From assembly GCA_964611895.1 (NCBI GenBank), contig CAZTDN010000008.1, positions 13,328 to 77,327 of the forward strand: a stretch of DNA of 64,000 nucleotides. The letters run 5' to 3'. The notes below the pieces were generated by a model. It made no database searches, had not been told where the DNA came from, and saw only the letters and a program-made list of their open reading frames with translations. This document shows positions 7,611 through 64,000 of this stretch, in pieces. This DNA is from an uncultured Pseudobdellovibrionaceae bacterium. Its GTDB lineage: Bacteria > Bdellovibrionota > FAC87 > UBA2466. The position numbers and the translations under genes are program-made. Positions within the stretch are counted from its first letter, which is position 1. Each line of letters begins with the position of its first letter.

Positions 7611-8449
7611 AAAAGTTCAATCTCCACTCCACCAGCTTGGAACTTAGTGTGGCCATCCCAAAAGTTCCTATAAACAAAAGCCAACCCCCGAGCAAATCGA
7701 TCCTTTTCTGGACTGGGGACGATCGATTGAAGCACTGCAGCTTTCTTACCCTCATGCACAAATTCAAGAGGAAGAACGCCCTGCAGGTACTCTCCGCGCA
7801 CTTCGACCGGAAACAGTTTTCGATTCACTTGTCCATAGGTAAAAATCCGTTCAACCACCTCTTGCCCTGGGTAGCAGCCCTTATTGCGATCTACGGCTTT
7901 TTCCAAACCGGCTTCCAGAACCATTACCGTGGAATCAATTTCGACCCCCACCCGTGCAAATCCCACAGACACCAGGTAGTAGTTTAACCACTGCTCGGTA
8001 AAATGCCCCTCTGGCGCGGGCACCTCCTGCATTGGCACGTGACACCACGAAACCGCTCGAGAAAACGGGTCATTCCACTCCAAGCCGGGCACTGAAACAA
8101 CCCCACTCCGTGCAAAAAGCCTCCAATCTGTAGAGACATCTTTGAACTCTAAATTCTCAGCAAAATGGTATCGCTCCAAATGCTCCAAAGCCGCTGCCGC
8201 GTTGCCCTGCGGGACGCAAAAATAAAACCCGTCAGAATGGGCTCGAAAAAAACCCAAAGCCACCACACCCGATCGTGCAGTCAAGAACGCCCCGAGACGG
8301 ACGGCGCTTGGATCCCAGTTTTTAAAGCTTAGGGTTGTCAGCCGATTGAGAAAATCCGCTGCGTCCGGCCCTTGAATAGAAAGCGTGGCCCAATCCAATC
8401 CCAATCGTCCAGCAGGAAGACTCAGCGCGCTTTCTTGCATGAGGGGCAC
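7607..8449 (-). CDS. YgfZ/GcvT-like folate-binding protein (Fe-S cluster repair/assembly factor family)
   Basis: 280 aa. KGCYPGQE motif characteristic of the YgfZ/aminomethyltransferase folate-binding fold. Overlaps ccsB by 4 nt. Confidence 0.65.
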   Translation of the reverse strand: MPLMQESALSLPAGRLGLDWATLSIQGPDAADFLNRLTTLSFKNWDPSAVRLGAFLTARSGVVALGFFRAHSDGFYFCVPQGNAAAALEHLERYHFAENLEFKDVSTDWRLFARSGVVSVPGLEWNDPFSRAVSWCHVPMQEVPAPEGHFTEQWLNYYLVSVGFARVGVEIDSTVMVLEAGLEKAVDRNKGCYPGQEVVERIFTYGQVNRKLFPVEVRGEYLQGVLPLEFVHEGKKAAVLQSIVPSPEKDRFARGLAFVYRNFWDGHTKFQAGGVEIELL

Positions 8450-8751
8450 TCACAGGTCTTGCGGAGCGAGTCGAAAGTATAAAAACCCGTGTCATGCCCA
8501 TCCGACCAAACAAATCGCAGGGCATACCGCCCTACAGATTCAATGCGCTTAGGTCTAATGTCTGCTGGAACCTTCTCGTCGTCCAAAATTTTTTCGCGCG
8601 TCCATTCATCCACGCAATGAGCGCATCGGCAATTCAGGCGCAAGCTGCGCACCCGATAAAAAGAACAGTGCCCATCGCTCCACACTATACCGAGATTGGA
8701 CGGGCTAAGCTGCTTGAGTTCAACGGGAACGACGTCTGCCATTATTGCCAC
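8422..8751 (-). CDS. DUF971 family protein (gamma-butyrobetaine hydroxylase-like N-terminal domain)
   Basis: 109 aa. Duplicated W-SDGH-S-Y ... LR..C.CA.C motif (VWSDGHCSFYRVRSLRLNCRCAHC; FVWSDGHDTGFYTFDSLRKTCECPSC). A classic neighbour of Mrp/ApbC. Confidence 0.6.
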   Translation of the reverse strand: MAIMADVVPVELKQLSPSNLGIVWSDGHCSFYRVRSLRLNCRCAHCVDEWTREKILDDEKVPADIRPKRIESVGRYALRFVWSDGHDTGFYTFDSLRKTCECPSCKKAR

Positions 8752-9536
8752 TCCAAGTTGAGCGATTGAAAATGATTTCCCGCGCCGACTTGTAAGCTAT
8801 CCAAGCGCGATACCACCTGATCGGCAATTTGGGAAAACTCCACAGCGGCAGGGGAGGATGGCTCGACCTGAATAATAGGCCGCCCCTTATCCCCACTCAC
8901 AACGATAGAAGACTGCAAAGGCACGGAGCCCAAAAAGGGAACTTGAAACTGGTCCGCCAAGACCCTCCCTCCGCCAGCGCCAAATACCTCTCCCGACATA
9001 TTTTCGACGACGCCTAAAATCGGCACTTTGACGTTCTGGAACATCATCAAACCTTTGCGAGCGTCAGCCAAACTCACTGCTTGGGGAGTTGTAACGATAA
9101 TGGCACCGGATAACGGCGCATTTTGGCTGATAGTCAGCTGCGCATCACCGGTTCCTGGGGGCATATCAATAAATAAATAGTCCAACTCTCCCCAATCTAC
9201 CTGGGTCAGAAACTGAGTCAGCGCTCCGTGTACCATGGGGCCTCGCCAAACCACCGGTTGATCGTCTGGGATCAAAAAACCCATCGACATGACCTTCACA
9301 CCGTCTTTGACCAGAGGAGTAACATGTGTCTCGGTAGCATCCGGTTTTTGATCTAACCCGACCATCAAAGGAAGGCTTGGCCCATAAATATCGGCGTCGA
9401 GAAGCCCGACTTTATGCCCAAGCTTAGCCAACGCAAACGCGAGGTTGGTGGTAACTGTGCTCTTGCCCACCCCGCCTTTGCCGCTGGCGACAGCAATTAA
9501 GTTGCGAACGGAGGGCATGGCGATTCGTTGTGACAT
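8742..9536 (-). CDS. mrp: Mrp/ApbC/NBP35-family iron-sulfur cluster carrier ATPase
   Basis: 264 aa. Deviant Walker A AVASGKGGVGKST, CxxC-containing ParA/MinD fold. Start may be the internal M (MPSVRN). Confidence 0.9.
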   Translation of the reverse strand: MSQRIAMPSVRNLIAVASGKGGVGKSTVTTNLAFALAKLGHKVGLLDADIYGPSLPLMVGLDQKPDATETHVTPLVKDGVKVMSMGFLIPDDQPVVWRGPMVHGALTQFLTQVDWGELDYLFIDMPPGTGDAQLTISQNAPLSGAIIVTTPQAVSLADARKGLMMFQNVKVPILGVVENMSGEVFGAGGGRVLADQFQVPFLGSVPLQSSIVVSGDKGRPIIQVEPSSPAAVEFSQIADQVVSRLDSLQVGAGNHFQSLNLEWQ

Positions 9537-42765: not shown

Positions 42766-43383
42766 CTAAATCTTGCGTTGCAAGCCGACGACCTTTCCCT
42801 GGATCTGGAAGGCTTTATCGGTGACCGCAATGGGTTTCATTTTCTTGTTTTCCGGAACGAGGAAAACTCCCTGCGCCGTTTCCCGGTATCGTTTCACAGT
42901 GGTTTCGCCCCCTACCAAGGCAACAACAATGTCTCCGTTTCGCACGCGGGACCCAGTTTCCACTATCAAGTGGTCGCCCTCTAGGATCCCTGCTTCGATC
43001 ATGCTGTCTCCGACAACACGCAGGGCAAAACTAGGTTTTGCAGAAGTATCCTCTGAAACTAAAACAGACCCCAACTCAACTTGGGGCGTGTCCCTCAAGG
43101 GCCCTGCAGCGATTTCTCCGTAAATAGGAATCCGTTGAGTCCCCTGCGGTCGAAATCCCGCTGGAAAAAGCCCCCGCGCCTTGCGTCCGTTTTTGGCAGT
43201 TTTAGGATCGTCTAAGTAGCCCTTGCGGATCAGCGCTTTGACATACCCTTGAACTGTTCCCACGGCCTTAAAACCAAAGTGGTCTTGGATTTCACGGTAA
43301 GAGGGCGGCGCGCCATGAGTGGCACACGTGTCTTTAATAAAGTTCAAGACATCTTGTTGCGAACTCGTCAGCGGGCTTTTCAT
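42766..43383 (-). CDS. lexA: LexA repressor (S24 peptidase)
   Basis: Winged-helix N-terminus; Ala-Gly cleavage region; GDSM motif VVGDSMIEAGI; Lys in TTVKRY. Start taken at MKSPLTS (43383). Confidence 0.9.
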   Translation of the reverse strand: MKSPLTSSQQDVLNFIKDTCATHGAPPSYREIQDHFGFKAVGTVQGYVKALIRKGYLDDPKTAKNGRKARGLFPAGFRPQGTQRIPIYGEIAAGPLRDTPQVELGSVLVSEDTSAKPSFALRVVGDSMIEAGILEGDHLIVETGSRVRNGDIVVALVGGETTVKRYRETAQGVFLVPENKKMKPIAVTDKAFQIQGKVVGLQRKI

Positions 43384-43409
43384 TTTTTTCTTTTTCCCCC
43401 TACCAAAAA

Positions 43410-43425
43410 CATACAAATGTATGTA
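43410..43425. promoter_or_regulatory. Candidate LexA operator: 16-bp palindrome ACATACAAATGTATGT in the lexA / imuA divergent intergenic region
   Basis: Perfect 7-bp inverted arms (ACATACA / TGTATGT) with a 2-bp centre, sitting in the 52-bp gap between divergent lexA and the imuA-like gene. Confidence 0.45.
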
Positions 43426-43435
43426 TGTCATAAAA

Positions 43436-43894
43436 ATGGGCCTTTTGTCTAGTTCTACTTCTTCTTTAAACGCTCGGGGAGGGTTAACCCAGGTCCTCGC
43501 CCAACAAACCCTCGCTCCTGTTCAGGCCACCTTAAACAAAGCTTTAGAATCCTCTCACACTGACGAAGATTATTTTTTCTGGGCCTCAGACGAGGGCATC
43601 CTCTATCCCGAGGCCCTTTTATACCGCTGGAAAATCCCTCTCTCACGGTTCTTATTAGTACAAGCACGGGATGCCTCTGAAGTTTGGCGCCTGGGGTTAG
43701 AAGCCTCTCAAACAGGGCTATTTCGCCTTCTTTTCCTCAGAGCTTCTCGGCTCTGCCATCTCCCCCTATTGAGAAAACTCCAACTCTGCGCCGAGAAAAA
43801 CCAGTGTGATGTTTTTATCCTCACCCACACCCCCCTTCCCCATTGGACACTCAAAAAATGCGGACCCTTTATATCCAAAGCCCACACTCTTTAA
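43436..43894 (+). CDS. imuA: ImuA-like protein (short ImuA' type) of the imuA-imuB-dnaE2 mutagenesis cassette
   Basis: About 152 aa from ATG 43436. Call based mainly on synteny (divergent from lexA, followed by imuB and dnaE2). No Walker motifs, consistent with ImuA' variants. Confidence 0.5.
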   Translation: MGLLSSSTSSLNARGGLTQVLAQQTLAPVQATLNKALESSHTDEDYFFWASDEGILYPEALLYRWKIPLSRFLLVQARDASEVWRLGLEASQTGLFRLLFLRASRLCHLPLLRKLQLCAEKNQCDVFILTHTPLPHWTLKKCGPFISKAHTL

Positions 43895-45081
43895 GCGTTC
43901 TGGCGGAGAGCTGTTTTGCGCTCACCCCCAAAGTTACCTTGTGCGGTCTGCACCACCTGTACCTGGATATCCAGCCCACTTTGCGTGCTCTCGGAGGCGA
44001 AAACACAATCTGGTCTCACGCTGAGCATCTCACTGAGACTTTTGCCTCCTCGTATCAAATGATTCTTGTCGACAGGCCCGAGTGGGCACGCGCGCTGGTG
44101 CAAAAAACTCCAGAGCGTATTCCAACCGGAAAAAGCGCGGCCAGGCTCAAGCTCCTGCCTATTGAAAAACTTTTTTTCATCGGAGATCCACTCACTGAGA
44201 ACGCCGCAGAAAAAAAACGGCTCATCGTTTTTTTAAAAAAAGTCGGCATGCGGACCATTGGGGATTTTATCGCCATTCCAACAGCCTCGATCTTGCGGCG
44301 TTTTGGAAAAGAAGGGGAATCTCTCCACCTCTATGCCAAAGGGAACACCTCTCTTTGTTTGCCTTTATATGCCCCTCAAGATCTTATTGAGACATTTATA
44401 GATGCTGATGAGTTTTTCTCTTTAGATGCACTTTTGTTTAGTTTGCGACAAGCTCTTATCCGAATAGAAGCTCGCTTGCGAGGACGCGCCCTATCCGCGC
44501 GTTCTATTCAGCTCACTTTTCATCTAGAATCTCACCCGCCTATCGCCAAAACCCTACCACTCAACGAACCACTCCAAGAAGCTCAGGCGATATTGCGCAT
44601 CCTCAAGGAATTTCTGCAGAACCTTCACTGGGAGTCGCCCCTAGTGCGACTCCATCTCAAAATTATCGAAACAGCACCCCACACCCCTGGCCAGCTCTCC
44701 CTTTTGGATGATTTTGAAAACAAGTCTCACTCACTTGCGCATTATGTCGCAAGGCTCCGGGCCCGCTTAGGAGAAGATAGAGCGGGTTTTGCCCTTCTCC
44801 ACTCCAGCCACTTGCCCGAACAGTCTTTTTCTCTATCGTGGCCAGCACGCTCTGCCTGTGACCATCGAGACCCTTTCCCCGAACGCCCGCTTTTTCTGTT
44901 CTCTCCCCCACGGCCTTTTTCTCTTTCGCCACTGTGGAAACTAGAGCCCACTGAGTCTCTTTTTACTCAGTGGTGGGAATCAGGAGGGACCAGAGAATAT
45001 TTCACTGCCCGAAAGGAAAGTGAATGCCTGTGGGTTTACCGTACCCCAAGTGGAGAATGGTTTGCTCATGGCGTTTTCTAG
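43858..45081 (+). CDS. imuB: ImuB: Y-family DNA-polymerase-like protein (catalytically inactive paralogue)
   Basis: About 407 aa, between the imuA-like gene and dnaE2. Y-family palm/fingers-like N-terminal region; overlaps both neighbours. Confidence 0.7.
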   Translation: MRTLYIQSPHSLSVLAESCFALTPKVTLCGLHHLYLDIQPTLRALGGENTIWSHAEHLTETFASSYQMILVDRPEWARALVQKTPERIPTGKSAARLKLLPIEKLFFIGDPLTENAAEKKRLIVFLKKVGMRTIGDFIAIPTASILRRFGKEGESLHLYAKGNTSLCLPLYAPQDLIETFIDADEFFSLDALLFSLRQALIRIEARLRGRALSARSIQLTFHLESHPPIAKTLPLNEPLQEAQAILRILKEFLQNLHWESPLVRLHLKIIETAPHTPGQLSLLDDFENKSHSLAHYVARLRARLGEDRAGFALLHSSHLPEQSFSLSWPARSACDHRDPFPERPLFLFSPPRPFSLSPLWKLEPTESLFTQWWESGGTREYFTARKESECLWVYRTPSGEWFAHGVF

Positions 45082-48000
45082 ACCCTTTGCTGAACTTGCC
45101 GCCAAGAGTAATTACTCTTTCCTAGAAGGTGCCTCTCACCCAGAAGAACTCGTCACTCAGGCCAAAGCACTGGGCTACAGAGCGCTTGCTGTGGTGGACC
45201 GCTTGGGTGTGTATGGAAGCCCTCGATGCCATATCGCCGCAAAAGCGCAAAGGCTCCATTTCATCGTCGGAGCAGAAGTCCCTGTCGAGGGAATGCGGGC
45301 GCTGCTGCTCGCCAAAAACCGCAACGGCTACGGCAACCTATGTGAACTGCTTACCACTGCGCACTCTGACCGAGACAACCCCACTGCCCCGCTCGAAACC
45401 CTATTGTCTTTTTCAAAGGACTTGTACCTGTTGCTTCCCGCATGGAAACTCCCCACCGAAAAAGTCCCTCTGCTTCAAGAGGCTTTTGGGAAGAATCTAT
45501 CTCTTCTTGTTAGTCTAGCTCTGGATGGTTGCGACAAAGCCCGCCTTTCGGCCGCCAAGCAAGCCTCAAAGCAATTCCAACTCTCCTGCACCGCGAGCAA
45601 CGAGCCGCTTTTTCACGAACCACAACGTAAACCCTTGCAAGATGTTCTCACCTGCATCCGCCATGGTTGCACTTTAACTCAGGGAGGAACTCGACTACTG
45701 CCCAATGCGCACCGTTGTTTAAAGTCACCCGAGCAAATGTATGCGCTCTTTTCTCAACACCCGGAGTGGGTACAGCACTCAGTGGAAATCGCCTCTCAAT
45801 GCGCTTTTTCTCTCGACGAGATCCGGTACCGATACCCAACAGAATGGATCCCGAGCAACCACACCGGGGACTCGTACTTGGCAGAACTCGCGTGGGAGGG
45901 AGTCAAGAAACAGTATGGCCACAATCCTTCAAAAAAAGTACAAGAACTCCTAAAGCAAGAGCTCTCGCTGATCCAAGAGCTGGAGTACAGCGATTATTTT
46001 CTCACGATTTGGGACATAGTCTGTTTTGCGCGATCTCAGGGGATCTTGTGTCAAGGGCGCGGCTCGGCGGCCAATTCTTTGGTTTGTTATGTATTAGGAA
46101 TCACGTCGATTGACCCGGCTCACTTGGATCTTTTGTTTGAACGTTTTATTTCTCGTGAAAGGCGAGAACCTCCTGATATTGACATCGACTTTGAACACGA
46201 ACGCCGCGAAGAAATCATTCAGTACATTTATCAACGGTATGGCAGACACCGCGCTGCGATCACCGCAGAAGTGATTTGCTTTAGAAAACGATCTGCGTTG
46301 CGAGAGGTCGCCAAGGTTTTTGAAATATCGATTGCCACAGTGGAATCTCTCCAGACGTTAACGCACCGTCGATCTTTGGATGAAATCGATTTGAAGGCTC
46401 TGCAATCAACGGCCACGTCTGTTCCCTCTGAAAAAATGGCTTTGTACTTTTCGATGGTCCGAGCCATCCGGTCTTTTCCCAGACATTTGGGCACCCATGT
46501 GGGTGGGTTTGTTCTGTGCCAAGATGCTCTGTCACGCAATGTCCCCATTGAAAAAGCCGCGATGGAAAACCGGACTATTGTCCAATGGGATAAGAACGAC
46601 CTCGATGCGTTGGGCTTTGTGCGGGTGGATATCTTAGGTTTGGGAATTCTTACTGCTATTCGAAAAGCGTTTGATCTTATCCAACAGAGCCGTGGTGTTT
46701 CTTGGACACTTGCGTCTTTGCCCAGGGAGGATCCTGCTGTTTATGACTCTGTTTGTGCGGCTGATACTGTGGGTGTTTTTCAGATTGAGTCGCGTGCGCA
46801 GATGAACATGCTCCCACGGCTTCGCCCTCGTTGTTTTTATGATTTGGTGATTGAGATTTCTCTGGTTCGACCAGGACCGATACAGGGCGACATGGTGCAC
46901 CCGTACTTAAAGCGACGCAATGGAGAGGAGCGTATTGAGTACGCACACCCGGAGCTAGAGGCCATCTTAAAAAAAACCTGTGGGGTTCCTTTGTTTCAGG
47001 AACAGATCATGAAAATAGCCATGACAGTCGCAGGTTTTACCGGGGGCCAGGCTGACGAGCTGCGACGCGCGATGGGATCGTGGCGACGCGACGGGCACAA
47101 TCGACTGAGCAGCTTGGGAGATAGGTTTCGTCAGGGGCTTATCGATCGGGGAATCTCTGTCGACTATGCGCAACGTGTTTTTCAACAGATTGAGGGGTTT
47201 GCCGAGTATGGGTTTCCGGAGTCTCATGCGGCTTCGTTTGCAGTACTCGTCTATGCCACGGCTTACCTGAAGCACTATTATCCCGATGCGTTTCTTGCGG
47301 CTTTGCTCAACTCTCAGCCCATGGGGTTTTACAGTCCACACAGTCTTTTGCACGATGGAATGCGGCACGGGGTTAAAGTGGATGGCATTTCAATTCAAGA
47401 ATCTTTTTGGGACAACACGATTCCAAGCCCCATGCATTTGCGTTTGGGGTTTCGACAAATCCGTGGCTTCCGCAAGCAAGTCGCATTTGCCATTGAGTCT
47501 GCACGCGCGAGTGGGTTTGGCTCTTTTGAAGACTGTATTGAGAAAACAGCCCAGGCTTTGCGCCCCACTGCCCTCACAAAGCGAGATCTATTTGGCCTCG
47601 CAGGGGCCGGAGCTTTTGAGTGCCTGGGAATTTCTCGCAGGCAAAGCCTGTGGGAGATCCAGAAAATGGCTTTGGCGGATAGCTTTGCTTTTCAAGCCAC
47701 CGAAGTACCTTTTGAGCTCCCAGTCGAAGAGGATTGGGAGCGGATTTCCTCGGACTATGAAGCACAGGGGGTGTGCTTGCATACGCACCCGGTTTCTTAT
47801 TTTAGAGAGGAGCTGAGTGGTCAGGGGGTAGTGTCTTCGGACAGGTTGAAGAACTGCGTAGAAAACCAGCGCATTCAAGTGGCTGGGTTAGTGATTTGCC
47901 GGCAGCAACCGCCAACAGCATCGGGAGTGCTTTTTATCACGCTCGAAGATGAGGGAGGCTTTATCAATCTGGTGATTTGGAAAAAGGTCTTTGAGCAGTA

Positions 48001-48160
48001 CCGCGAGGCGCTTCTGACTCAGTCTTTTTTGGTTTGTGGGGGGCGCATTCAGCGTGCTCAGGGGACGCAGGTGACGCATGTTTTGGTAGATAAAGTAGCC
48101 CCTCTTCTGGCTGTATACAACGAGCCTTGGGCCGGGCCGATTTCTTATGATTTTCATTAA
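45068..48160 (+). CDS. dnaE2: Error-prone DNA polymerase DnaE2 (ImuC)
   Basis: N-terminal PHP domain FAELAAKSNYSFLEGASHPEEL; Pol III alpha core with catalytic GVFQIESRAQMNM... region; OB fold at the C-terminus. About 1030 aa. Confidence 0.9.
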   Translation: MAFSRPFAELAAKSNYSFLEGASHPEELVTQAKALGYRALAVVDRLGVYGSPRCHIAAKAQRLHFIVGAEVPVEGMRALLLAKNRNGYGNLCELLTTAHSDRDNPTAPLETLLSFSKDLYLLLPAWKLPTEKVPLLQEAFGKNLSLLVSLALDGCDKARLSAAKQASKQFQLSCTASNEPLFHEPQRKPLQDVLTCIRHGCTLTQGGTRLLPNAHRCLKSPEQMYALFSQHPEWVQHSVEIASQCAFSLDEIRYRYPTEWIPSNHTGDSYLAELAWEGVKKQYGHNPSKKVQELLKQELSLIQELEYSDYFLTIWDIVCFARSQGILCQGRGSAANSLVCYVLGITSIDPAHLDLLFERFISRERREPPDIDIDFEHERREEIIQYIYQRYGRHRAAITAEVICFRKRSALREVAKVFEISIATVESLQTLTHRRSLDEIDLKALQSTATSVPSEKMALYFSMVRAIRSFPRHLGTHVGGFVLCQDALSRNVPIEKAAMENRTIVQWDKNDLDALGFVRVDILGLGILTAIRKAFDLIQQSRGVSWTLASLPREDPAVYDSVCAADTVGVFQIESRAQMNMLPRLRPRCFYDLVIEISLVRPGPIQGDMVHPYLKRRNGEERIEYAHPELEAILKKTCGVPLFQEQIMKIAMTVAGFTGGQADELRRAMGSWRRDGHNRLSSLGDRFRQGLIDRGISVDYAQRVFQQIEGFAEYGFPESHAASFAVLVYATAYLKHYYPDAFLAALLNSQPMGFYSPHSLLHDGMRHGVKVDGISIQESFWDNTIPSPMHLRLGFRQIRGFRKQVAFAIESARASGFGSFEDCIEKTAQALRPTALTKRDLFGLAGAGAFECLGISRRQSLWEIQKMALADSFAFQATEVPFELPVEEDWERISSDYEAQGVCLHTHPVSYFREELSGQGVVSSDRLKNCVENQRIQVAGLVICRQQPPTASGVLFITLEDEGGFINLVIWKKVFEQYREALLTQSFLVCGGRIQRAQGTQVTHVLVDKVAPLLAVYNEPWAGPISYDFH

Positions 48161-59145: not shown

Positions 59146-59643
59146 ATGTTTTTCCTCGGACACCTGGGCATCGGCAAAACCATGGCAAAACCATGGAGTG
59201 CGAGTCTCCCACTGTTTTGGATCCTGGTTGGGTGTGTGCTTCCCGACCTTATCGACAAACCCTTGTATTATGGCCTCTCTTGGTACACGGGCCTAAGAGG
59301 GCAGGACCTCGGCCTCATCAGCGGAACCCGTACCTTTGGACACACTGGCATTCTTTGGGCCTTGCTTGTGGCTTCGGGTTTTATTTCTAAAAAAGCTCGA
59401 AGTGTCGCGCTGGGACTGAGCACGCATTTGATCTTAGACTTTACGACAGACGCTTTAGACGGGCACTTGTGGGATAGCAGTTGCGCCCTGGCATTTGTTT
59501 TTCCAGCGCTGGGCGTTCGCTTTCCGGTCTCACCATTCGATAATCTCGAAAACCACCTGTCCGTCTTGATGCACCGAGCGTCGATTATCGGGGGAGAAAT
59601 TGCGGGGGCTTACCTCCTCTGGAGGCGCCCCCGTTCTCGTTAG
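59146..59643 (+). CDS. Membrane-bound metal-dependent hydrolase (YdjM/DUF457-like)
   Basis: 165 aa. N-terminal MFFLGHLGIG and conserved His residues in TM helices (GHTGILWAL, STHLILD), typical of the YdjM family. Confidence 0.6.
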   Translation: MFFLGHLGIGKTMAKPWSASLPLFWILVGCVLPDLIDKPLYYGLSWYTGLRGQDLGLISGTRTFGHTGILWALLVASGFISKKARSVALGLSTHLILDFTTDALDGHLWDSSCALAFVFPALGVRFPVSPFDNLENHLSVLMHRASIIGGEIAGAYLLWRRPRSR

Positions 59644-60398
59644 TCTTTTTTGGGCAAATTCTCTCCAAACCCAGCAAAAACACGTGCCAAAACCTTACCG
59701 GTATCCGGAGCGTTGGGATAGGGATACTGGGTATCCTGAGAATTCTGCCCATCGCTGCCTTTGATGGCTTTGATGACGGTAACAAGCCCCATCTCTCTTT
59801 CCTTGGCGTACGACCGCGAATCCGAAAGGGATTTTGTCACCGTTCCGGTGAACGCAAGCTCGCCCGTCTGCAGATCGTAAACATGCATTGAAGCTGAAAC
59901 GGTGCGGGTTGTAGACGAAGTGACCTTTTCGGTTCCTGGAACGATGTTTCCGTTCTTGTCGGTCGAAGAGGATTCGGAGCGATCCGTATGCACCTCGTCG
60001 TTTTCGATTCTAGAAAACGCGGCGTAACGTATCCCCGCAAGCTTGGCTTTTAGGTTCGACACCGAACGATCGCTCAACATGCCGGTCGACTGCATTTCGC
60101 TGATCAAGCCTTGGTATTGGGTGCGCCCCAGGCGGTTCATCAGAGTCCCCACAGGAGCAATCTCGTAATCCTTACGCTCTTCTAAGAGTGCGTTGCGCAT
60201 CACATTCGCGTACGAAGTGCGGCGACCCTCGTCTAGCGTATCAAACGCGGCCGCTACCCCACCAATAGCCAGTTTGCCCCCATGAACGGCAGCGTAGGTA
60301 AAACTAGGGCTCTGTTTAAGCCCTGTTATTTTGGTGGCACAGCCCGCGAGGAGCAGTCCTAGAGCCATGCTTGCGAATACCCGATGGAACGATTTCAT
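59640..60398 (-). CDS. Lipoprotein, hypothetical
   Basis: Signal peptide plus lipobox LLAGC. Ser/Thr-rich. No domain recognised. Confidence 0.55.
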   Translation of the reverse strand: MKSFHRVFASMALGLLLAGCATKITGLKQSPSFTYAAVHGGKLAIGGVAAAFDTLDEGRRTSYANVMRNALLEERKDYEIAPVGTLMNRLGRTQYQGLISEMQSTGMLSDRSVSNLKAKLAGIRYAAFSRIENDEVHTDRSESSSTDKNGNIVPGTEKVTSSTTRTVSASMHVYDLQTGELAFTGTVTKSLSDSRSYAKEREMGLVTVIKAIKGSDGQNSQDTQYPYPNAPDTGKVLARVFAGFGENLPKKD

Positions 60399-60587: not shown

Positions 60588-60630
60588 TAAATAAAGCCGG
60601 GGGCTTTGTTGCCCCCGGCTTTATTTGTTT
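60588..60630 (-). terminator. Rho-independent terminator (bidirectional hairpin) after the sigma54-activator gene
   Basis: AAAGCCGGGGGC-tttgtt-GCCCCCGGCTTT perfect 12-bp GC-rich stem with T-rich flanks, 4 nt beyond the stop at 60634. Confidence 0.6.
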
Positions 60631-60633
60631 ACC

Positions 60634-62217
60634 CTAATGCAGAGACTCTTCTCTGACCCCACCAGAAATTCGATGACGCTTTAAGCGGCGATAGAGAGTC
60701 GGACGAGACACTTTGAGATGCTTTGCCATCTCGTCGAGAGTCCCTTGATACTGATCCAGACATTGTTGAAGAATCTGTTTTTCGTAGGCATCCAAATACG
60801 ACTCTAACCCCAAATCTAAGACCCGACGGAAATCATCCACAGAGGCCTGTACTTCGACCACCGATTCCATCGTTTCGTTAGGGCTGCGGTACATTGGAGG
60901 AACATGCTCAATCTCAATGGTGTCAGAACCACGAGAGCGTAACACCAGAAACTCCACAGCATCCTGGAACTCCCGTACATTGCCCTCTTCCCAACGCTGT
61001 TCACGCAAGAGCGTAAGCACTTCCGGGTTATAGGGCTTATCAAAACCCGCAAACTTTTGAATAAAATGCTCTAGCAAAAGCGGGATATCGCCCTGACGAT
61101 CCCGTAGTGGGGGAATATTGACCACAACTTGAGAAATGCGCGAGTAGAGGTCTTTTCGGAATTTTCCTTCCTCTACCATCTTGCGCAAATTTCGATTGGT
61201 TGCTGCAATGATTCGCACATCTGCCTTGCGCTTAACATCGTCTCCCAGGCGATAATATTCCATTGAATCCAAAAACGTGAGGAACATTGCCTGCGTCTCC
61301 AAAGGCATTTCCCCAATTTCGTCTAGGAAAAGGTCTCCTCCCCTAGCCAATTCAACCAGACCTCGTTTATCCGAAATCGCCCCCGTAAAAGCGCCTTTCT
61401 TGTGTCCAAAAAGCTGATCTTGGAACTGTTCGGTATTCAAACAAGCACAGTTCAACTGCTCAAAAGGCCGCATCTGCCCAGTGAGCTCAGCGACGACTTC
61501 GCTCGAGTAGCGGGCGAACGGGGTTTTACCCACCCCGGTTTCCCCAACCAAAAGAACGCGCAGCGAAGCAGCTTCGGCAATCATTTGCTTTGCTCGCAAT
61601 ACCCCACTGTCTTTTCCGACGATCTTAGACTCGGCTGCCGATTTTTCAAAAGCGCGCTGGTATACGCGTGTCCGCATGCTACCCGTAAGCACTTTGTCCA
61701 ACTTCATTTCCAAAGTCTCTCGGTCGAACGGTTTTTCCAAATAGTCATCCGCCCCGAGCTTGATGCACTTAACGACTGTAGGGACTTCCCGGTACCCGGA
61801 AACGACAATTGCGGGTTTTTCCGGAAAACGTTTCTTGAAGATAGTCAAAAACTCGATCCCGTCATGATCGGATTCCTGAAGATTGATGTCCACCATCGCA
61901 CCATCGACATCTTCATTCTCCAAAATAGACACCGCTTTTTGGAAGGAGCTCGCCAAAAAGAGCTTGTACTTCCCGCCCATGGCAATTTGCAGCGCTTCCA
62001 ATGCCAACACTTCATCATCCAGAATCAACAACGACTTTGTACTCACAGTGCCTCTTTCTACCTGCAGATTGAAAAACGGCGGCACCGTATCAAAAATGAG
62101 ACCCGAAGGAAAGAGGGATTCCACCGCCCCCTCTGAAAAATCATTAAATTCAAAAGCTTGTCTCATACCACTCCAATCATCTTTCAATTCCACTGAACCG
62201 ATCTGCAGGTGGTGCAA
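60634..62217 (-). CDS. Sigma54-dependent response regulator (REC + AAA+ sigma54-activator + Fis-type HTH) with about 60-aa N-terminal extension
   Basis: REC: LLILDDEV...VDINLQ...KPF. Activator: Walker A GETGVGKT, GAFTGA sigma54-contact motif, Walker B DLFLDEIGE. C-terminal HTH LDEMAKHLKVSRPTLYRRLKR. Start may be 62166 (MRQAFEF). Confidence 0.9.
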   Translation of the reverse strand: MHHLQIGSVELKDDWSGMRQAFEFNDFSEGAVESLFPSGLIFDTVPPFFNLQVERGTVSTKSLLILDDEVLALEALQIAMGGKYKLFLASSFQKAVSILENEDVDGAMVDINLQESDHDGIEFLTIFKKRFPEKPAIVVSGYREVPTVVKCIKLGADDYLEKPFDRETLEMKLDKVLTGSMRTRVYQRAFEKSAAESKIVGKDSGVLRAKQMIAEAASLRVLLVGETGVGKTPFARYSSEVVAELTGQMRPFEQLNCACLNTEQFQDQLFGHKKGAFTGAISDKRGLVELARGGDLFLDEIGEMPLETQAMFLTFLDSMEYYRLGDDVKRKADVRIIAATNRNLRKMVEEGKFRKDLYSRISQVVVNIPPLRDRQGDIPLLLEHFIQKFAGFDKPYNPEVLTLLREQRWEEGNVREFQDAVEFLVLRSRGSDTIEIEHVPPMYRSPNETMESVVEVQASVDDFRRVLDLGLESYLDAYEKQILQQCLDQYQGTLDEMAKHLKVSRPTLYRRLKRHRISGGVREESLH

Positions 62218-62659
62218 GCGGTTCCGAGGGCGCGGGGCACTGGGGCACTCCGGAACTCACCGCTTGCTCGGGCTCAGCTCGGGTGGCCTCGTAACAGTCC
62301 AAGCGCCGTATTCCCGAAGCTACTTCTGGATCGGACGCAAACTCGCACCCATCAAAAACGCAGTGGTCAAAAACTGCTTGGCGGAAAGTGCTTTTTCTAA
62401 AATCCACTTCGCGAAAGTAAACGTGTGTAAATTCTACACAGCTAAAATCGACCTCCTGGAGTTCAAGACCGATCCAATACCCACCCTCAAAAGTACAATG
62501 CAGTATGGACCAGCGCTCCCACGCTCCTCCCTGAACCACCAGCGACCTTGCTCGCTCCTCAAACCAATACCCATTCGAAAATCGCGCACCTTCCCAGAGC
62601 TGCGGCTCGAGTGAAAGCACCCCGCGCTGACGTCGGTCTGTTCCTTCAATAGCGTTCAT
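62177..62659 (-). CDS. Pentapeptide-repeat protein
   Basis: 160 aa. Tandem A(D/N)LxF-like pentads (CTFEGGYWIGLELQEVDFSCVEFTHVYFREVDFRKSTFRQAVFDHCVFDGCEFASD). Pro/Ala-rich C-terminal tail. Confidence 0.55.
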   Translation of the reverse strand: MNAIEGTDRRQRGVLSLEPQLWEGARFSNGYWFEERARSLVVQGGAWERWSILHCTFEGGYWIGLELQEVDFSCVEFTHVYFREVDFRKSTFRQAVFDHCVFDGCEFASDPEVASGIRRLDCYEATRAEPEQAVSSGVPQCPAPSEPLAPPADRFSGIER

Positions 62660-62668
62660 GCAGCCCTC

Positions 62669-63661
62669 CTAGGCGCGAATCAATGTCAATTCATGCAACG
62701 GCATGCTCGAACGTACTGAGGTGCGACACCCAGCGATCAGGTACTTGCCATGCAAAGATTTTTCGGGAGCCGATTTCAGCTCCAAGCAATCCCCGGGCAA
62801 ACCGGGTAAATGAGCTGTGAAAAACCGAAAGATTTCAGAACCGGCCGCCCGCTTTGACAATCGGTTAGCAAGGATCTGCTCCATCTGTTCCGGAGAAGTA
62901 GCCCCAGGACATACAGTTTCCATTCGCCCGCCGGCGAGCATTCGGTTTTTCTTGGCCTCAAAACTAGATGCATTTTTCAAAAAACCCAGAGGTGAATAAA
63001 GCGCACTACGGGAGAGTTCAGTCTTGCGAGCCCTTCCCTCGTTGGAATCGATGGAAAACACTTCGGCTGAGTCGTACATAAACCCACTCGTACGCGCGCT
63101 TGAAATGGAGCCAAGATAAGCCCCCTCAAAAGGCCCCGATTCCCGATGGGATCCTAAACGAATGAAATGCATTTCTTTCGATACAGAATGAACCAAGAAA
63201 TAAAAACCAAAGTCTTCAGAGATACTTTGCAAGTGCTCTAGATAGGATTTCCCCCCTAAGTCCATTCCAGGCATTTTTAGACCGAACTTCCCAAAAAATC
63301 GTGGACGCAGCCCAACCAAAGACGCAATCTTCTTTAAAAAATCTTCGAGGTGTTGATCTTTTAAAAACTCACTCTCAAAAACTCGGCTCAGAATCTCCAG
63401 GGAATCGCGGTATTCCAGCTCTACTTCATGAAGGTCGTTGCATCGAACAGCAAACAAATCTGCTTGGAACAGCTGTTTCCCATTGCACTTCAACCCCGCC
63501 ACCTTGGAAATCGAGCTCAAACTAAATTCAGCACGCTGTTTCACCGTGAGTGTTTTTTTTATCGTAAGCGTCGTGGGACGATCCAAAAAGCAACTCAACT
63601 CCGCGGACTTCAGAGTTCCCGGTCCGTCCGCCAATATTTCAAATGGCTTTTGTTTACTCAT
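62669..63661 (-). CDS. Hypothetical protein (330 aa), translationally coupled to the upstream radical-SAM-like gene
   Basis: Start MSKQKPFEIL at 63661 forms an ATGA overlap with the upstream stop. No motif confidently recognised. Confidence 0.5.
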   Translation of the reverse strand: MSKQKPFEILADGPGTLKSAELSCFLDRPTTLTIKKTLTVKQRAEFSLSSISKVAGLKCNGKQLFQADLFAVRCNDLHEVELEYRDSLEILSRVFESEFLKDQHLEDFLKKIASLVGLRPRFFGKFGLKMPGMDLGGKSYLEHLQSISEDFGFYFLVHSVSKEMHFIRLGSHRESGPFEGAYLGSISSARTSGFMYDSAEVFSIDSNEGRARKTELSRSALYSPLGFLKNASSFEAKKNRMLAGGRMETVCPGATSPEQMEQILANRLSKRAAGSEIFRFFTAHLPGLPGDCLELKSAPEKSLHGKYLIAGCRTSVRSSMPLHELTLIRA

Positions 63662-64000
63662 CCTTTGCCCCCGACCAGAACTCGCATACCGGCCTTTTTT
63701 GCCAACACGACGAGTTCTTCGACCTGCTCCACAGGCGCCTGTACCAAACCCTTTTCTGGAGAAATGAAACACGTCATTAGGTTTAGGTACCCTTGGAATC
63801 CCACATCTCGGAGCGCATCGATTACTCGAACGCTGTCTTGTTGAAAGCCGGGCATGAGCAGGTGGCGAATAATCATTCCATGGGTCAGTCGACCATGCTC
63901 CATCACTGGCGAACCGTGCGTTGCCATGAAGGAGGAGACGGCTTTTTGAGTAATGGATCCGTAACGAGATGGAAGTGCCACTGCAGTCGCCGCTTCCGAA
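63658..64000 (-). CDS. Radical SAM activating-enzyme-like protein (PflA/AmmeMemoRadiSam-type), C-terminal part only; N-terminus lies beyond the window
   Basis: C-terminal sequence ...GRLTHGMIIRHLLMPGFQQDSVRVIDALRDV...MTCFISPEKG...EELVVLAKKAGMRVL. The (I/V)RHL(V/L)(M/L)PG motif is characteristic of PFL-activase-like radical SAM enzymes. The CxxxCxxC motif would lie off-window. Confidence 0.45.
   Translation of the reverse strand, partial: SEAATAVALPSRYGSITQKAVSSFMATHGSPVMEHGRLTHGMIIRHLLMPGFQQDSVRVIDALRDVGFQGYLNLMTCFISPEKGLVQAPVEQVEELVVLAKKAGMRVLVGGKG

What the first reader, a model, noticed from the sequence alone, without database searches (positions are those of the whole stretch)
62177..64000. 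Translationally coupled operon (radical-SAM-like enzyme, 330-aa unknown, pentapeptide-repeat protein) abutting a sigma54 enhancer-binding response regulator
The three minus-strand genes are coupled (ATGA overlap at 63658-63661; 9-nt gap at 62660-62668) and end at the start of a REC-AAA+-HTH sigma54 activator. This suggests a two-component, sigma54-controlled module whose enzymatic core (a PFL-activase-like radical SAM) extends off-window. The 330-aa protein has no recognisable family. Pentapeptide-repeat proteins often act as DNA or protein mimics. The combination is not a described system that I recognise.
Basis: partly seen in the sequence, partly recalled or inferred. Interest (0 to 1): 0.5.

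Follow-up and report, generated by a model that had tools for sequence, protein, structure and literature searches.

The report
Tail end of a sigma54-driven contractile injection operon
The three coupled genes are the last part of a phage-tail-like "molecular syringe" operon found in predatory Bdellovibrionota bacteria; the "unknown" 330-aa protein is the syringe's central baseplate hub, and the operon is unusual in having a radical-SAM enzyme built into it.

Summary
On the minus strand there is a radical-SAM gene (3' end in the window), a 330-aa gene, a pentapeptide-repeat gene and an NtrC-type sigma54 activator. They are separated by a 4-nt overlap, 9 nt and 10 nt.

An identical public contig extends the sequence 9.7 kb beyond the window. 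There these genes close a roughly 11-kb, 17-gene operon encoding a contractile injection system (CIS): two sheath proteins, three tube proteins, gp25 and putative wedge proteins. Next come DUF1257, DUF2997, a 55-aa protein and the radical-SAM enzyme, then the hub, the pentapeptide protein and the activator.

The 330-aa protein models confidently (pLDDT 94.6) as a gp27/gpD-type hub without a spike domain. The radical-SAM protein has CX3CX2C, and its closest solved fold is pyruvate formate-lyase activase.

A perfect TGGCAC-N5-TTGC promoter precedes the first operon gene, and a second box faces the divergent AAA ATPase gene. Such boxes are about 700-fold enriched in this control region across 11 related Bdellovibrionota locus records.

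Gene order is conserved in more than 10 genomes. What the radical-SAM/DUF1257/DUF2997 block does inside a CIS is unknown, and I found no description of it in the literature I could search.

The parts
63658..64000 (-). 3' part (last 113 codons plus stop) of a 246-aa PFL-activase-like radical SAM gene. The N-terminal part with CX3CX2C lies beyond the window end.
   Evidence: ORF. Full protein from the identical contig at L001:9264-10004, with CHLACSFC at residues 32-39. 41 of 42 family members hit Pfam Radical_SAM. The model has pLDDT 96.3 and its best PDB fold match is PFL-AE 3c8f/8fo0, TM 0.74-0.76, E 8e-12.
62669..63661 (-). 330-aa central baseplate hub (gp27 / P2 gpD / Mu gp44 type; equivalent to the N-terminal half of Cis8/Pvc8/Afp8/VgrG). 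It has no gp5-like spike domain.
   Evidence: The window protein itself has no Pfam, NCBIfam, PHROG or PADLOC hit. Of 43 family members, 18 hit PF24032 YQBQ and 15 hit PF05954 Phage_GPD, best E 2.4e-11. AlphaFold model: pLDDT 94.6, pTM 0.91. Foldseek top hits are the Algoriphagus CIS chain 7aef_q (E 3e-21, TMq 0.78), PVC spike 9qgm_8A, Anabaena CIS 7b5h_AJ, VgrG1 4mtk, Mu gp44 1wru/9ki1_G and T4 gp27 1k28_D.
62177..62659 (-). 160-aa pentapeptide-repeat protein with a variable N-terminus, about 8-10 repeats, a Pro/Ala-rich linker and a conserved C-terminal motif [DGT]RFxx[IL][ED] (here DRFSGIER) at or near the C-terminus.
   Evidence: Pfam PF00805 29.5 bits against a 20.2 cutoff. Alignment of 12 orthologues shows invariant R154 and F155 and nearly invariant E159. 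It always follows the hub gene in related loci.
60634..62166 (-). 510-aa NtrC-type sigma54 enhancer-binding response regulator (REC, AAA+ with GAFTGA, Fis-type HTH). It is the last gene of the unit.
   Evidence: Pfam Sigma54_activat E 8e-51, Response_reg E 7e-18, HTH_8 E 3e-9. GAFTGA and Walker A GETGVGKT are present, as is a DD pair near the start of the REC domain; the rest of the phospho-acceptor set was read by eye from the printed sequence. Orthologues at 77-85% identity sit in the same position in L010, L013 and L014.
60589..60626 (-). Intrinsic-terminator-like hairpin (16-bp stem) 8 nt after the activator's stop codon, followed by UUUAUUUA. It is the likely end of the operon.
   Evidence: RNA fold -30.2 kcal/mol, z -6.8, 0 of 200 shuffles as stable. 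The simple terminator scan did not list it.
62660..62668 (-). 9-nt intergenic spacer with a GAGG ribosome-binding site before the pentapeptide gene. A 10-nt spacer with GGAG lies at 62167-62176 before the activator gene.
   Evidence: Read directly from the sequence.

Best explanation
**What it is.** The segment is the distal end of a roughly 11-kb, 17-gene sigma54-dependent operon. The operon encodes a compact phage-tail-like contractile injection system (CIS) that is conserved in uncultured Bdellovibrionota; the closest relatives of this window are Pseudobdellovibrionaceae.

**Gene order** (L001 coordinates; window coordinate = 73662 minus L001 coordinate):
- a divergent AAA ATPase gene, followed by a ~500-aa gene;
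- a control region with two divergent sigma54 promoters;
- g196, sheath1, tube1, sheath2, tube2, CIS_tube, gp25, g438 and g200, the last two being putative gp6/gp7-like wedge proteins;
- DUF1257, DUF2997, a 55-aa protein and the radical SAM enzyme;
- the hub, the pentapeptide protein and the activator (EBP), then a terminator.

**Shown here:**
- the CIS identity of the sheath, tube, gp25 and hub proteins;
- the radical-SAM motif and the PFL-AE-like fold;
- the conserved gene order;
- the conserved -24/-12 promoter boxes.

**Inferred:**
1. The response regulator, once phosphorylated by an unlinked kinase, binds the conserved central element of the control region. It then opens sigma54-RNA polymerase at both promoters. 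Because it is the last gene of the operon, it reinforces its own synthesis.
2. A hub trimer nucleates the baseplate. Because the hub lacks a spike domain, the neighbouring pentapeptide beta-helix protein acts at the hub tip. It could be a tip adaptor, an assembly factor or cargo, as proposed for the pentapeptide protein TagAB that follows vgrG-5 in Burkholderia T6SS-5. Its conserved C-terminal RFxxLE tail on a flexible linker would be a docking or packaging peptide.
3. The PFL-activase-like radical SAM enzyme modifies a protein or peptide encoded in the operon. The translationally coupled 55-aa protein is the prime candidate. DUF1257 and DUF2997 would be its partner proteins.
For: **Extension beyond the window.** L001 is identical to the window over 11,332 bases. 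Its called genes carry Phage_sheath_1, Phage_T4_gp19 (twice), CIS_tube, GPW_gp25, DUF1257, DUF2997 and AAA domains. A second sheath paralogue is detected by PHROGs.

**Sheath lineage.** The closest solved relatives of sheath1 are the Streptomyces CIS sheath 8bky/9gtp (E 5e-107), then Pvc2 and Afp3. Pyocin and T4 sheaths are far weaker matches.

**Hub.**

**Radical SAM.**

**Gene order.** The full order is conserved in L004/L012, L006, L008, L010, L013, L014, L017, L018, L020 and L022, and in fragments L011, L015, L019 and L021. Almost all of these are labelled Bdellovibrionota or one of its families. The association holds down to 36% radical-SAM identity (L008). At 31% identity or below it is lost.

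**Sigma54 promoters.**
- There is a perfect box at L001:1994-2008, 26 nt before g196, and TGGTAT-N5-TTGC faces the AAA gene.
- TGGYAY-N5-TTGC occurs 18 times in 2.8 kb of control regions, against 2 times in the other 217 kb of 11 locus records. That is roughly 700-fold enrichment.
- Footprinting in four loci leaves only the two boxes, a central GTTTCAG..TGAGA element and the ribosome-binding site conserved.

**Packing and termination.** Every junction of the 17-gene operon either overlaps or has a gap of at most 13 nt. A terminator follows the EBP gene.

**Pentapeptide precedent.** In Burkholderia T6SS-5, vgrG-5 is followed by tagA/B-5 and tagB-5. TagAB is required for Hcp secretion and sheath assembly (PMC6335564, PMC13584744).
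Against: - No spike (gp5, gpV or PAAR), tape measure, tail fibre, effector or membrane anchor was recognised. The g196, g438, g200 and ~500-aa proteins have no Pfam or PDB sequence match, so their roles rest on gene position only.
- The EBP gene is directly downstream in only four loci: this one, L010, L013 and L014. In L004 it is on the opposite strand and lacks REC. In L003, L006, L008, L018 and L020 it is absent within about 10 kb. The regulator-target link is therefore by adjacency plus promoter type and is untested.
- The AAA ATPase belongs to a very large family that elsewhere travels with DUF1257 and DUF2997 but without any CIS genes. These three proteins may therefore be a separate module recruited to the locus rather than CIS parts.
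- No substrate of the radical SAM enzyme is identified. No glycyl-radical motif is present in the 21 genes checked.
- All evidence is computational and comes from metagenome assemblies.
Confidence: 0.8

Rival explanations
1. This is a self-contained, sigma54/two-component-controlled enzymatic module whose core is a radical SAM enzyme (a glycyl-radical activase or peptide maturase). The 330-aa and pentapeptide proteins would be its novel partners or substrates.
For: The radical SAM enzyme is real and PFL-AE-like. A conserved 55-aa ORF is translationally coupled just upstream. A sigma54 promoter and an EBP are present.
Against: The sigma54 promoter sits 7.3 kb upstream of the radical SAM gene, in front of the sheath and tube genes. 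The 330-aa protein is a baseplate hub. Every radical SAM homologue at 36% identity or above whose context was recovered lies inside the same CIS cluster. No glycyl-radical motif or GRE gene is present, and the 55-aa protein has no cysteines.
Confidence: 0.04
2. The cluster is a domesticated defective prophage tail, an R-type tailocin (bacteriocin) released by lysis. It would not be an effector-delivering or cell-associated contractile injection system.
For: The hub is a stand-alone gp27/gpD type as in Mu, P2 and R-pyocin (6u5h, 1wru, 3cdd). No effector, PAAR or packaging-type DUF4157 gene is recognised in the operon.
Against: The sheath is far closer to CIS sheaths (Streptomyces CIS E 5e-107, Pvc2 and Afp3 E ~1e-41) than to pyocin (1e-18) or T4 (1e-7) sheaths. 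An AAA ATPase is linked, which I know as typical of eCIS rather than tailocins (own knowledge). No lysis, integrase, capsid, tape-measure or fibre genes lie within +/-10 kb. None of the radical SAM relatives is on IMG/VR viral contigs. Control is by sigma54 rather than SOS or a repressor.
Confidence: 0.1
3. The response regulator is only a neighbour. It regulates other genes, and the CIS operon is activated by a different EBP.
For: In most related loci no EBP gene is adjacent although the sigma54 boxes are kept. In L004 the adjacent EBP lacks REC and is convergent.
Against: In this genome and its three closest relatives the EBP gene is 10 nt (here) or closely downstream on the same strand. It has a ribosome-binding site and no intervening terminator. 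It is 77-85% conserved, while the flanking downstream genes differ in distance. It is the only EBP within the 21 kb examined around sigma54 promoters that need one.
Confidence: 0.2

Closest known systems
Extracellular/cytoplasmic contractile injection systems (Afp, PVC, Algoriphagus AlgoCIS, Anabaena tCIS, Streptomyces CIS-Sc)
   Same: Phage_sheath_1-type sheath paralogues, gp19-type tube paralogues plus a CIS_tube protein, gp25, and a gp27-like hub whose fold best matches Cis8, Pvc8 and Afp8. A linked AAA ATPase is present and there are no capsid genes.
   Different: The hub is only the N-terminal half of Cis8/VgrG and has no gp5-like spike. No PAAR, tape measure, LysM tube initiator, fibre or DUF4157 gene was recognised. 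Instead, DUF1257, DUF2997, a 55-aa protein and a radical SAM enzyme are conserved between the wedge and hub genes. The operon is driven by sigma54 promoters with the EBP encoded in it.
Stand-alone baseplate hubs: phage Mu gp44, P2 gpD, MuSo2 43-kDa tail protein, R2 pyocin hub, PBSX XkdQ/YqbQ
   Same: Same size (about 325-330 aa) and fold, with TM about 0.67-0.73 in both directions. Family members hit Pfam Phage_GPD and YQBQ.
   Different: Sequence identity is only 10-15%. The window protein itself does not reach any Pfam model. In Mu and P2 a separate trimeric spike (gp45, gpV) accompanies the hub, and none is recognisable here.
Pyruvate formate-lyase activating enzyme (PflA) and other glycyl-radical-enzyme activases
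   Same: Small (about 245 aa) partial TIM-barrel radical SAM enzyme with an N-terminal CX3CX2C. It is the best sequence-profile and fold match in the PDB. PFL-AE acts on a protein loop.
   Different: 14% identity. NCBIfam activase models score 13-17 bits against cutoffs of 126-430. No glycyl-radical enzyme or RVxG[FWY] motif lies in the cluster. Relatives are tied to a CIS rather than to anaerobic metabolism.
Burkholderia T6SS-5 TagA/B-5 and TagB-5 (pentapeptide-repeat accessory proteins encoded directly after vgrG-5)
   Same: A pentapeptide-repeat gene lies immediately downstream of the hub or spike gene of a contractile machine. TagAB is needed for tube secretion and sheath assembly and is proposed to act at the spike tip.
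   Different: There is no DUF2169 domain here. This protein is much smaller (160-204 aa) and has its own conserved C-terminal RFxxLE motif. Homology beyond the repeats was not tested.
Sigma54/EBP control of contractile secretion (VasH of the Vibrio cholerae T6SS cluster; own knowledge)
   Same: An EBP is encoded inside the gene cluster of a contractile machine and acts on sigma54 promoters of structural genes.
   Different: This EBP has a REC input domain, so it is a two-component output. It is the last gene of the structural operon, and two divergent sigma54 promoters share one control region.

Membership tests
Contractile injection system / phage-tail-like particle | Contractile sheath protein | tested here: met
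   L001:2621-3769 carries Phage_sheath_1 and Phage_sheath_1C. Closest solved relative is the Streptomyces CIS sheath 8bky, E 5e-107. A second paralogue is detected by PHROG tail sheath, 2.4e-6.
Contractile injection system / phage-tail-like particle | Inner tube proteins (gp19/Hcp fold) | tested here: met
   Two Phage_T4_gp19 proteins and one PF19266 CIS_tube protein.
Contractile injection system / phage-tail-like particle | gp25-like wedge protein | tested here: met
   PF04965 GPW_gp25, 56.5 bits against a 27.2 cutoff.
Contractile injection system / phage-tail-like particle | Central hub of gp27 fold | tested here: met
   The model of the window's 330-aa protein has pLDDT 94.6. Foldseek probability is 1.00 to the Cis8, Pvc8, Afp8, VgrG, Mu gp44 and T4 gp27 hubs.
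Contractile injection system / phage-tail-like particle | gp6/gp7-like wedge proteins (TssF/TssG, Afp11/12) | tested here: inconclusive
   g438 (438-630 aa) and g200 follow gp25, as expected. They have no Pfam or PDB sequence match, and the structure tools could not be applied to off-window proteins.
Contractile injection system / phage-tail-like particle | Spike (gp5/gpV beta-helix) and PAAR tip; tape measure | tested here: not met
   No such domain appears in any of the 17 genes by Pfam, PHROG or NCBIfam. The hub ends at residue 330, before where the spike domain of Cis8/VgrG would start. Divergent versions cannot be excluded.
VgrG / Cis8 / Afp8 spike-hub fusion | C-terminal gp5-like OB fold and beta-helical needle fused to the gp27-like hub | tested here: not met
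   The query covers only about half of the 527-645-aa targets (TMq 0.70-0.78, TMt 0.38-0.50).
Phage_GPD / YQBQ hub family (Pfam PF05954 / PF24032) | Significant match to the family model | tested here: inconclusive
   The window protein itself has no hit even at E 1. Of 43 homologues, 15 hit Phage_GPD (best 2.4e-11) and 18 hit YQBQ (best 1.3e-9). The fold agrees.
Radical SAM superfamily | CX3CX2C [4Fe-4S]/SAM-binding motif and partial TIM-barrel fold | tested here: met
   CHLACSFC at residues 32-39, with C32, C36 and C39 invariant in 42 homologues. For this protein, Pfam Radical_SAM scores 22.6 bits, below the 29.5 cutoff, but 41 of 42 relatives match. The fold matches PFL-AE, RlmN, LipA, QueE and viperin.
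Glycyl-radical-enzyme activase (PflA/NrdG/CutD type) | Score above the family cutoffs and a cognate glycyl-radical enzyme with an RVxG[FWY] loop | tested here: not met
   NCBIfam activase models score 13-17 bits against cutoffs of 126-430. The motif occurs in none of the 21 genes checked in and around the cluster. Only the fold is PFL-AE-like.
Pentapeptide-repeat proteins | Tandem A(D/N)LXX-type repeats matching PF00805 | tested here: met
   29.5 bits against a 20.2 cutoff, residues about 53-120.
Qnr/MfpA DNA-mimic pentapeptide proteins; HalA (Hailong) | Equivalog-level match | tested here: not met
   MfpA scores 16.8 against 360, QnrAS 13.3 against 490 and HalA 26.6 against 250. No PADLOC hit.
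NtrC-class sigma54 enhancer-binding response regulator | REC with a phospho-acceptor Asp, AAA+ with GAFTGA, and a C-terminal Fis-type HTH | tested here: met
   All three Pfam domains are well above their cutoffs. GAFTGA is at residue 258 and Walker A is GETGVGKT. It is not an equivalog of any named regulator (best is AtoC, 257 against 714).
Sigma54-dependent promoter | -24 GG / -12 GC boxes (TGGCAC-N5-TTGC) upstream of the operon, conserved in relatives | tested here: met
   Perfect match at L001:1994-2008. Conserved in 10 of the 12 loci with a control region on the operon side and in 10 of the 11 that include the AAA side. About 700-fold enrichment in the control regions. Actual sigma54 dependence is not testable with these tools.

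The most novel reading that the evidence does not exclude
DUF1257, DUF2997, the 55-aa protein and the PFL-activase-like radical SAM enzyme form a dedicated radical-chemistry maturation module that is an obligatory part of this CIS lineage. The enzyme would post-translationally modify a structural or cargo protein of the machine. Candidates are the coupled 55-aa protein or the C-terminal RFxxLE tail of the pentapeptide protein. DUF1257 and DUF2997 would be its partners, as they are of the ferredoxin Fed7 in cyanobacteria. This would be the first contractile injection system whose assembly or payload depends on radical SAM chemistry. It would also give a first functional handle on the very widespread AAA-DUF1257-DUF2997 triad, which includes plastid Ycf35.
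Probability: 0.3. Interest if true: 0.8.

Novelty: new variant of a known kind. Interest (0 to 1): 0.58.

Why it matters
Contractile injection systems are intensely studied, both as bacterial weapons and as programmable protein-delivery devices. Their part lists are considered well known.

This lineage is found almost only in genomes labelled as Bdellovibrionota, a phylum known for predatory bacteria. It departs from the known part list in four ways:
- It keeps the sheath, tube, gp25 and hub core but has no recognisable spike, PAAR or tape measure.
- It carries a conserved radical SAM enzyme plus two widespread domains of unknown function (DUF1257/Ycf35 and DUF2997) inside the baseplate gene block.
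- It places a pentapeptide beta-helix protein next to the hub.
- It is wired to sigma54 through two divergent promoters, with a response regulator encoded in the operon.

If the radical SAM block is functionally part of the machine, it adds a new kind of maturation step to CIS biology. It also suggests a role for DUF1257 and DUF2997. If the machine is used in predation, it would be a new predatory organelle.

For the scan itself, the practical lesson is that the "undescribed system" is the edge of a larger, recognisable one.

Tried and rejected
**Direct annotation of the 330-aa protein.** Pfam, NCBIfam, PHROGs and PADLOC gave nothing. The word-indexed homologue search found only 2 proteins. 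With a 43-sequence profile it found only 3. A PDB sequence-profile search found nothing. The identity emerged only from three steps: the exhaustive HMMER search (49 representatives), Pfam hits of distant family members and structure prediction with Foldseek.

**Glycyl-radical idea.** No R[VIL]xG[FWY] motif occurs in any of the 21 proteins in and around the cluster. Glycine is not conserved in the pentapeptide C-terminal motif.

**DNA-mimic (Qnr/MfpA) or Hailong HalA identity for the pentapeptide protein.** Scores are far below the cutoffs.

**Defence-system identity.** The AAA ATPase gives only generic IetA-type hits, and the other proteins give nothing.

**Prophage origin.** There are no radical SAM relatives on IMG/VR contigs, and no phage genes other than tail genes.

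**Roles of g196, g438, g200, the second sheath-like protein and the ~500-aa protein.** They give no Pfam or PDB sequence match, even at family level.

**DUF1257 and DUF2997.** They have no solved relatives.

**Histidine kinase partner.** None was seen among the genes checked in the 24 kb of window downstream of the EBP gene or among the called genes of L001.

**Literature.** I found no paper linking CIS with radical SAM, DUF1257 or DUF2997. I found none describing a Bdellovibrionota CIS of this type.

The ~500-aa gene downstream of the AAA ATPase is cut off at the locus edge in every locus except L008, so it could not be compared across genomes. Off-window proteins could not be submitted for structure prediction.

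Full report
**1. Observation**

On the minus strand the window ends with four tightly packed genes.
- A right-edge ORF (63658..>64000) has a TGA stop that overlaps the ATG of the next gene. The plus strand reads 'tcat' at 63658-63661.
- A 330-aa gene lies at 62669..63661.
- After a 9-nt spacer containing GAGG comes a 160-aa gene (62177..62659).
- After a 10-nt spacer containing GGAG comes a 510-aa gene (60634..62166).

Pfam confirms pentapeptide repeats in the 160-aa protein (29.5 bits against a 20.2 cutoff). It also confirms a REC / Sigma54_activat / HTH_8 architecture in the 510-aa protein. GAFTGA and Walker A motifs are present. A 16-bp hairpin at 60589-60626 follows the activator's stop codon (-30.2 kcal/mol, z -6.8). 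One correction: the activator lies downstream in the same orientation, so it is the next gene of the same unit.

**2. Extension beyond the window**

The 330-aa protein has no hit in Pfam, NCBIfam, PHROGs or PADLOC. Only two relatives turned up in the word-indexed protein search. One is identical and lies on public contigs of up to 208 kb. One of these, the 43.7-kb contig JACCDT011107710.1, was retrieved with 10-kb flanks as locus L001. L001 is identical to the window over all 11,332 shared bases and extends 9.7 kb past window position 64000. The conversion is window coordinate = 73662 minus L001 coordinate.

Upstream of the finding, on the same strand, every junction overlaps or has a gap of at most 13 nt. 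The genes, in order, are:
- a 196-aa protein;
- a tail sheath (Phage_sheath_1 and Phage_sheath_1C);
- a gp19-type tube protein;
- a second sheath-like protein (PHROG tail sheath, 2e-6);
- a second gp19 tube protein;
- a CIS_tube protein (PF19266);
- gp25 (PF04965);
- a 438-aa protein and a 200-aa protein;
- DUF1257 and DUF2997;
- a 55-aa protein;
- the right-edge ORF, which is 246 aa in full.

An AAA ATPase gene followed by a ~500-aa gene is transcribed divergently.

**3. The three proteins named in the finding**

*(a) The right-edge ORF.* The full protein reads ...FSGCHLACSFCYTPETS..., a CX3CX2C motif. The three cysteines are invariant in 42 homologues.
- Pfam Radical_SAM scores 22.6 bits for this protein, below the 29.5 cutoff. 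However, 41 of 42 relatives match the model, with a best E of 3e-14.
- The best PDB sequence-profile hit is PFL-activating enzyme (E 0.003).
- The AlphaFold model has pLDDT 96.3. It superposes best on PFL-AE 3c8f/8fo0/3cb8, with TM 0.74-0.76 in both directions and E 8e-12. The next match, RlmN, has E 7e-8.

It is not a demonstrable glycyl-radical activase. The NCBIfam activase models score 13-17 bits against cutoffs of 126-430. None of the 21 genes checked in and around the cluster carries an RVxG[FWY]-type loop.

*(b) The 330-aa protein.* An exhaustive HMMER search found 49 cluster representatives. Of 43 family members, 18 hit Pfam YQBQ and 15 hit Phage_GPD, with a best E of 2.4e-11. A model built from 40 sequences has pLDDT 94.6 and pTM 0.91.

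Foldseek against the PDB gave probability 1.00 to two groups of proteins:
- the hub portions of the Algoriphagus CIS chain 7aef_q (E 3e-21, TMq 0.78), the PVC spike protein, the Anabaena CIS baseplate protein, VgrG1 and Afp8;
- the stand-alone hubs Mu gp44, MuSo2 and the R2 pyocin hub, and T4 gp27.

Against the 527-645-aa spike-hub fusions the query is covered well but the target only about half (TMt 0.38-0.50). The protein is therefore a gp27/gpD-type hub without a gp5-like spike.

*(c) The pentapeptide protein.* Twelve orthologues share the following features:
- a variable N-terminus;
- about 8-10 repeats;
- a Pro/Ala-rich linker;
- a conserved motif [DGT]RFxx[IL][ED] at or near the C-terminus.

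Matches to Qnr, MfpA and HalA are far below the cutoffs. A pentapeptide gene immediately after the hub or spike gene has a precedent in Burkholderia T6SS-5. There tagA/B-5 and tagB-5 follow vgrG-5. TagAB is needed for Hcp secretion and sheath assembly and is proposed to act at the spike tip (PMC6335564, PMC13584744).

**4. Conservation**

The radical SAM family has about 65 members, and those that carry a name are labelled Bdellovibrionota. Context look-ups and a scan of one genome per GTDB species gave more than 10 independent loci.

A tblastn table shows one gene order in L004/L012, L006, L008, L010, L013, L014, L017, L018, L020 and L022, and in the fragments L011, L015, L019 and L021. That order is: AAA (divergent), then g196, sheath1, tube1, sheath2, tube2, CIS_tube, gp25, g438, g200, DUF1257, DUF2997, g55, rSAM, hub, pentapeptide.

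Further points:
- The association persists down to 36% radical SAM identity (L008). It is lost at 31% identity or below.
- Sheath1 is 64-92% identical across loci, whereas the hub is only 25-51% identical.
- The closest solved sheath is the Streptomyces CIS sheath (E 5e-107), then Pvc2 and Afp3 (about 1e-41). Pyocin (1e-18) and T4 (1e-7) follow. This places the machine among CIS rather than tailocins or phages.
- No radical SAM relative is on IMG/VR viral contigs.

**5. Regulation**

A perfect TGGCACGGGGGTTGC lies at L001:1994-2008, 26 nt upstream of the first operon gene. It is the only perfect match in 21 kb. TGGTATCGAAATTGC faces the divergent AAA gene.

In the 12 related loci with a control region, a box with at least 8 of 10 matches lies 18-56 nt before the operon's first gene in 10. 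One faces the AAA gene in 10 of the 11 that include that side. TGGYAY-N5-TTGC occurs 18 times in 2.8 kb of these control regions, against 2 times in the remaining 217 kb. That is roughly 700-fold enrichment.

Aligning the control regions of the four closest loci leaves only four conserved elements:
- the two promoter boxes;
- a central element, GTTTCAG..TGAGA, which is part of a 16-nt inverted repeat at L001:1906-1952;
- the ribosome-binding site.

The EBP gene is directly downstream on the same strand only here and in L010, L013 and L014 (77-85% identity). It is convergent and lacks REC in L004. It is absent nearby in the other loci, although they keep the boxes. No histidine kinase was found among the genes checked in the 24 kb of window downstream or in L001.

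**6. The unusual block**

The AAA ATPase belongs to a very large family. At least 555 metagenome stretches encode relatives, and the best 80 are 42-52% identical. In those 80 best loci, DUF1257 (33 loci) and DUF2997 (20 loci) lie next to it. No sheath, tube, gp25 or hub gene was detected with my family HMMs.

In three loci an eCIS_core (PF13699) protein and an ordinary pentapeptide protein appear to follow. This was confirmed by Pfam in L027; two eCIS_core matches appear in the pooled scan, and pentapeptide hits occur in L027, L038 and L057. In cyanobacteria DUF2997 and DUF1257 (ycf35) are clustered with the ferredoxin gene fed7 (PMC4284462).

AAA-DUF1257-DUF2997 is thus a widespread, uncharacterised triad. 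In Bdellovibrionota it is combined with a CIS and a radical SAM enzyme. The 55-aa protein is conserved, with the motif TRIxIxxDGxLxVTDLW and no cysteines. It overlaps both neighbouring genes.

**7. Most likely mechanism**

Shown here:
- This is a sigma54-promoter-bearing CIS operon.
- The window holds its hub gene, a pentapeptide gene, the 3' end of a radical SAM gene and an in-operon EBP gene.

Inferred:
- The phosphorylated EBP activates both divergent promoters and, being last in the operon, feeds back positively on its own synthesis.
- The spike-less hub nucleates the baseplate, with g438 and g200 acting as gp6/gp7-like wedges by position only.
- The pentapeptide beta-helix acts at or with the hub tip, or is loaded as cargo through its C-terminal tail.
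- The PFL-AE-like enzyme modifies an operon-encoded protein, with g55 the prime candidate and DUF1257 and DUF2997 as partners.

Rivals (a radical-SAM-centred module, a tailocin, or an EBP that is only a neighbour) are scored in their own section.

**8. Comparison and novelty**

The machine belongs to the CIS/phage-tail-like superfamily: the sheath, tube, gp25 and hub tests are met. It fails the tests for spike, PAAR and tape measure, and the wedge assignment is inconclusive.

The library searches found no paper that links CIS with radical SAM, DUF1257 or DUF2997. They also found none describing this Bdellovibrionota cluster.

I classify it as a new variant of a known kind. It is ordinary in its core. 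It is unusual in its conserved radical SAM/DUF1257/DUF2997 block, its hub-plus-pentapeptide tip region and its sigma54 wiring.

**9. Limits**

- All of this is in silico and rests on metagenome assemblies.
- Off-window proteins could not be submitted for structure prediction.
- The ~500-aa gene beyond the AAA ATPase is complete only in L008, so it could not be compared across genomes.
- The word-indexed homologue search is insensitive for these families.

Noticed in passing
window 42766-48160: An SOS mutagenesis cassette. LexA (42766..43431, minus strand; Peptidase_S24 and LexA_DNA_bind) is divergent from a 191-aa ORF (43319..43894). This is followed by an ImuB-like protein (43843..45081, IMS_C) and a DnaE2-type Pol III alpha subunit (45020..48160).
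   Followed up: partly
L001:254-1813 (AAA) and L023-L102: The cluster's AAA ATPase belongs to a very large family; at least 555 metagenome stretches encode relatives, and the best 80 are 42-52% identical. In those 80 loci it is often flanked by DUF1257 (33 loci) and DUF2997 (20 loci), with no sheath, tube or hub genes detected. This is a widespread uncharacterised triad. Its cyanobacterial version is DUF2997-ycf35-fed7.
   Followed up: partly
L027:9965-13573, with similar arrangements suggested in L038 and L057: In these metagenome loci the AAA-DUF1257-DUF2997 triad appears to be followed by an eCIS_core (PF13699/DUF4157) protein and a canonical pentapeptide-repeat protein. This hints at a wider link between the triad, pentapeptide proteins and CIS-associated domains. 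Pfam confirmed the arrangement only in L027.
   Followed up: partly
L001:2621-3769 compared with window 62669-63661: Conservation is very uneven within the cluster. Sheath1 is 64-92% identical among loci in which the hub is only 25-51% identical and the pentapeptide protein 21-43%.
   Followed up: no
L003/L016 (GCA_041391485.1), 2967-9300: In this MAG the sheath1, g438 and g200 genes are broken by frameshifts or stop codons. This reflects either assembly errors or a decaying copy of the cluster.
   Followed up: no
L006:12665-12679: An extra TGGCATCCGTCTTGC sigma54-type box lies downstream of the pentapeptide gene and in front of a small ORF of about 90 aa, in a locus that has no adjacent EBP gene. 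L001 also has a one-mismatch box inside g438 at 7475-7489.
   Followed up: no
window 59640-60398 (minus strand): A 252-aa predicted lipoprotein lies directly downstream of the terminator. The N-terminus reads ...LLLAGC, and the lipoprotein call was made by eye. It has no Pfam hit. It recurs at 55-62% identity a few kb downstream of the cluster in L010 and L014. A possible association with the cluster was not examined.
   Followed up: no
record JACCDT011107710.1 (L001): The source accession belongs to a WGS project with more than 11 million contigs. Sister projects JACCDU and JACCEC appear in the metagenome collection. The window therefore comes from a metagenome assembly rather than an isolate. 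Its nearest relatives are labelled uncultured Pseudobdellovibrionaceae.
   Followed up: partly
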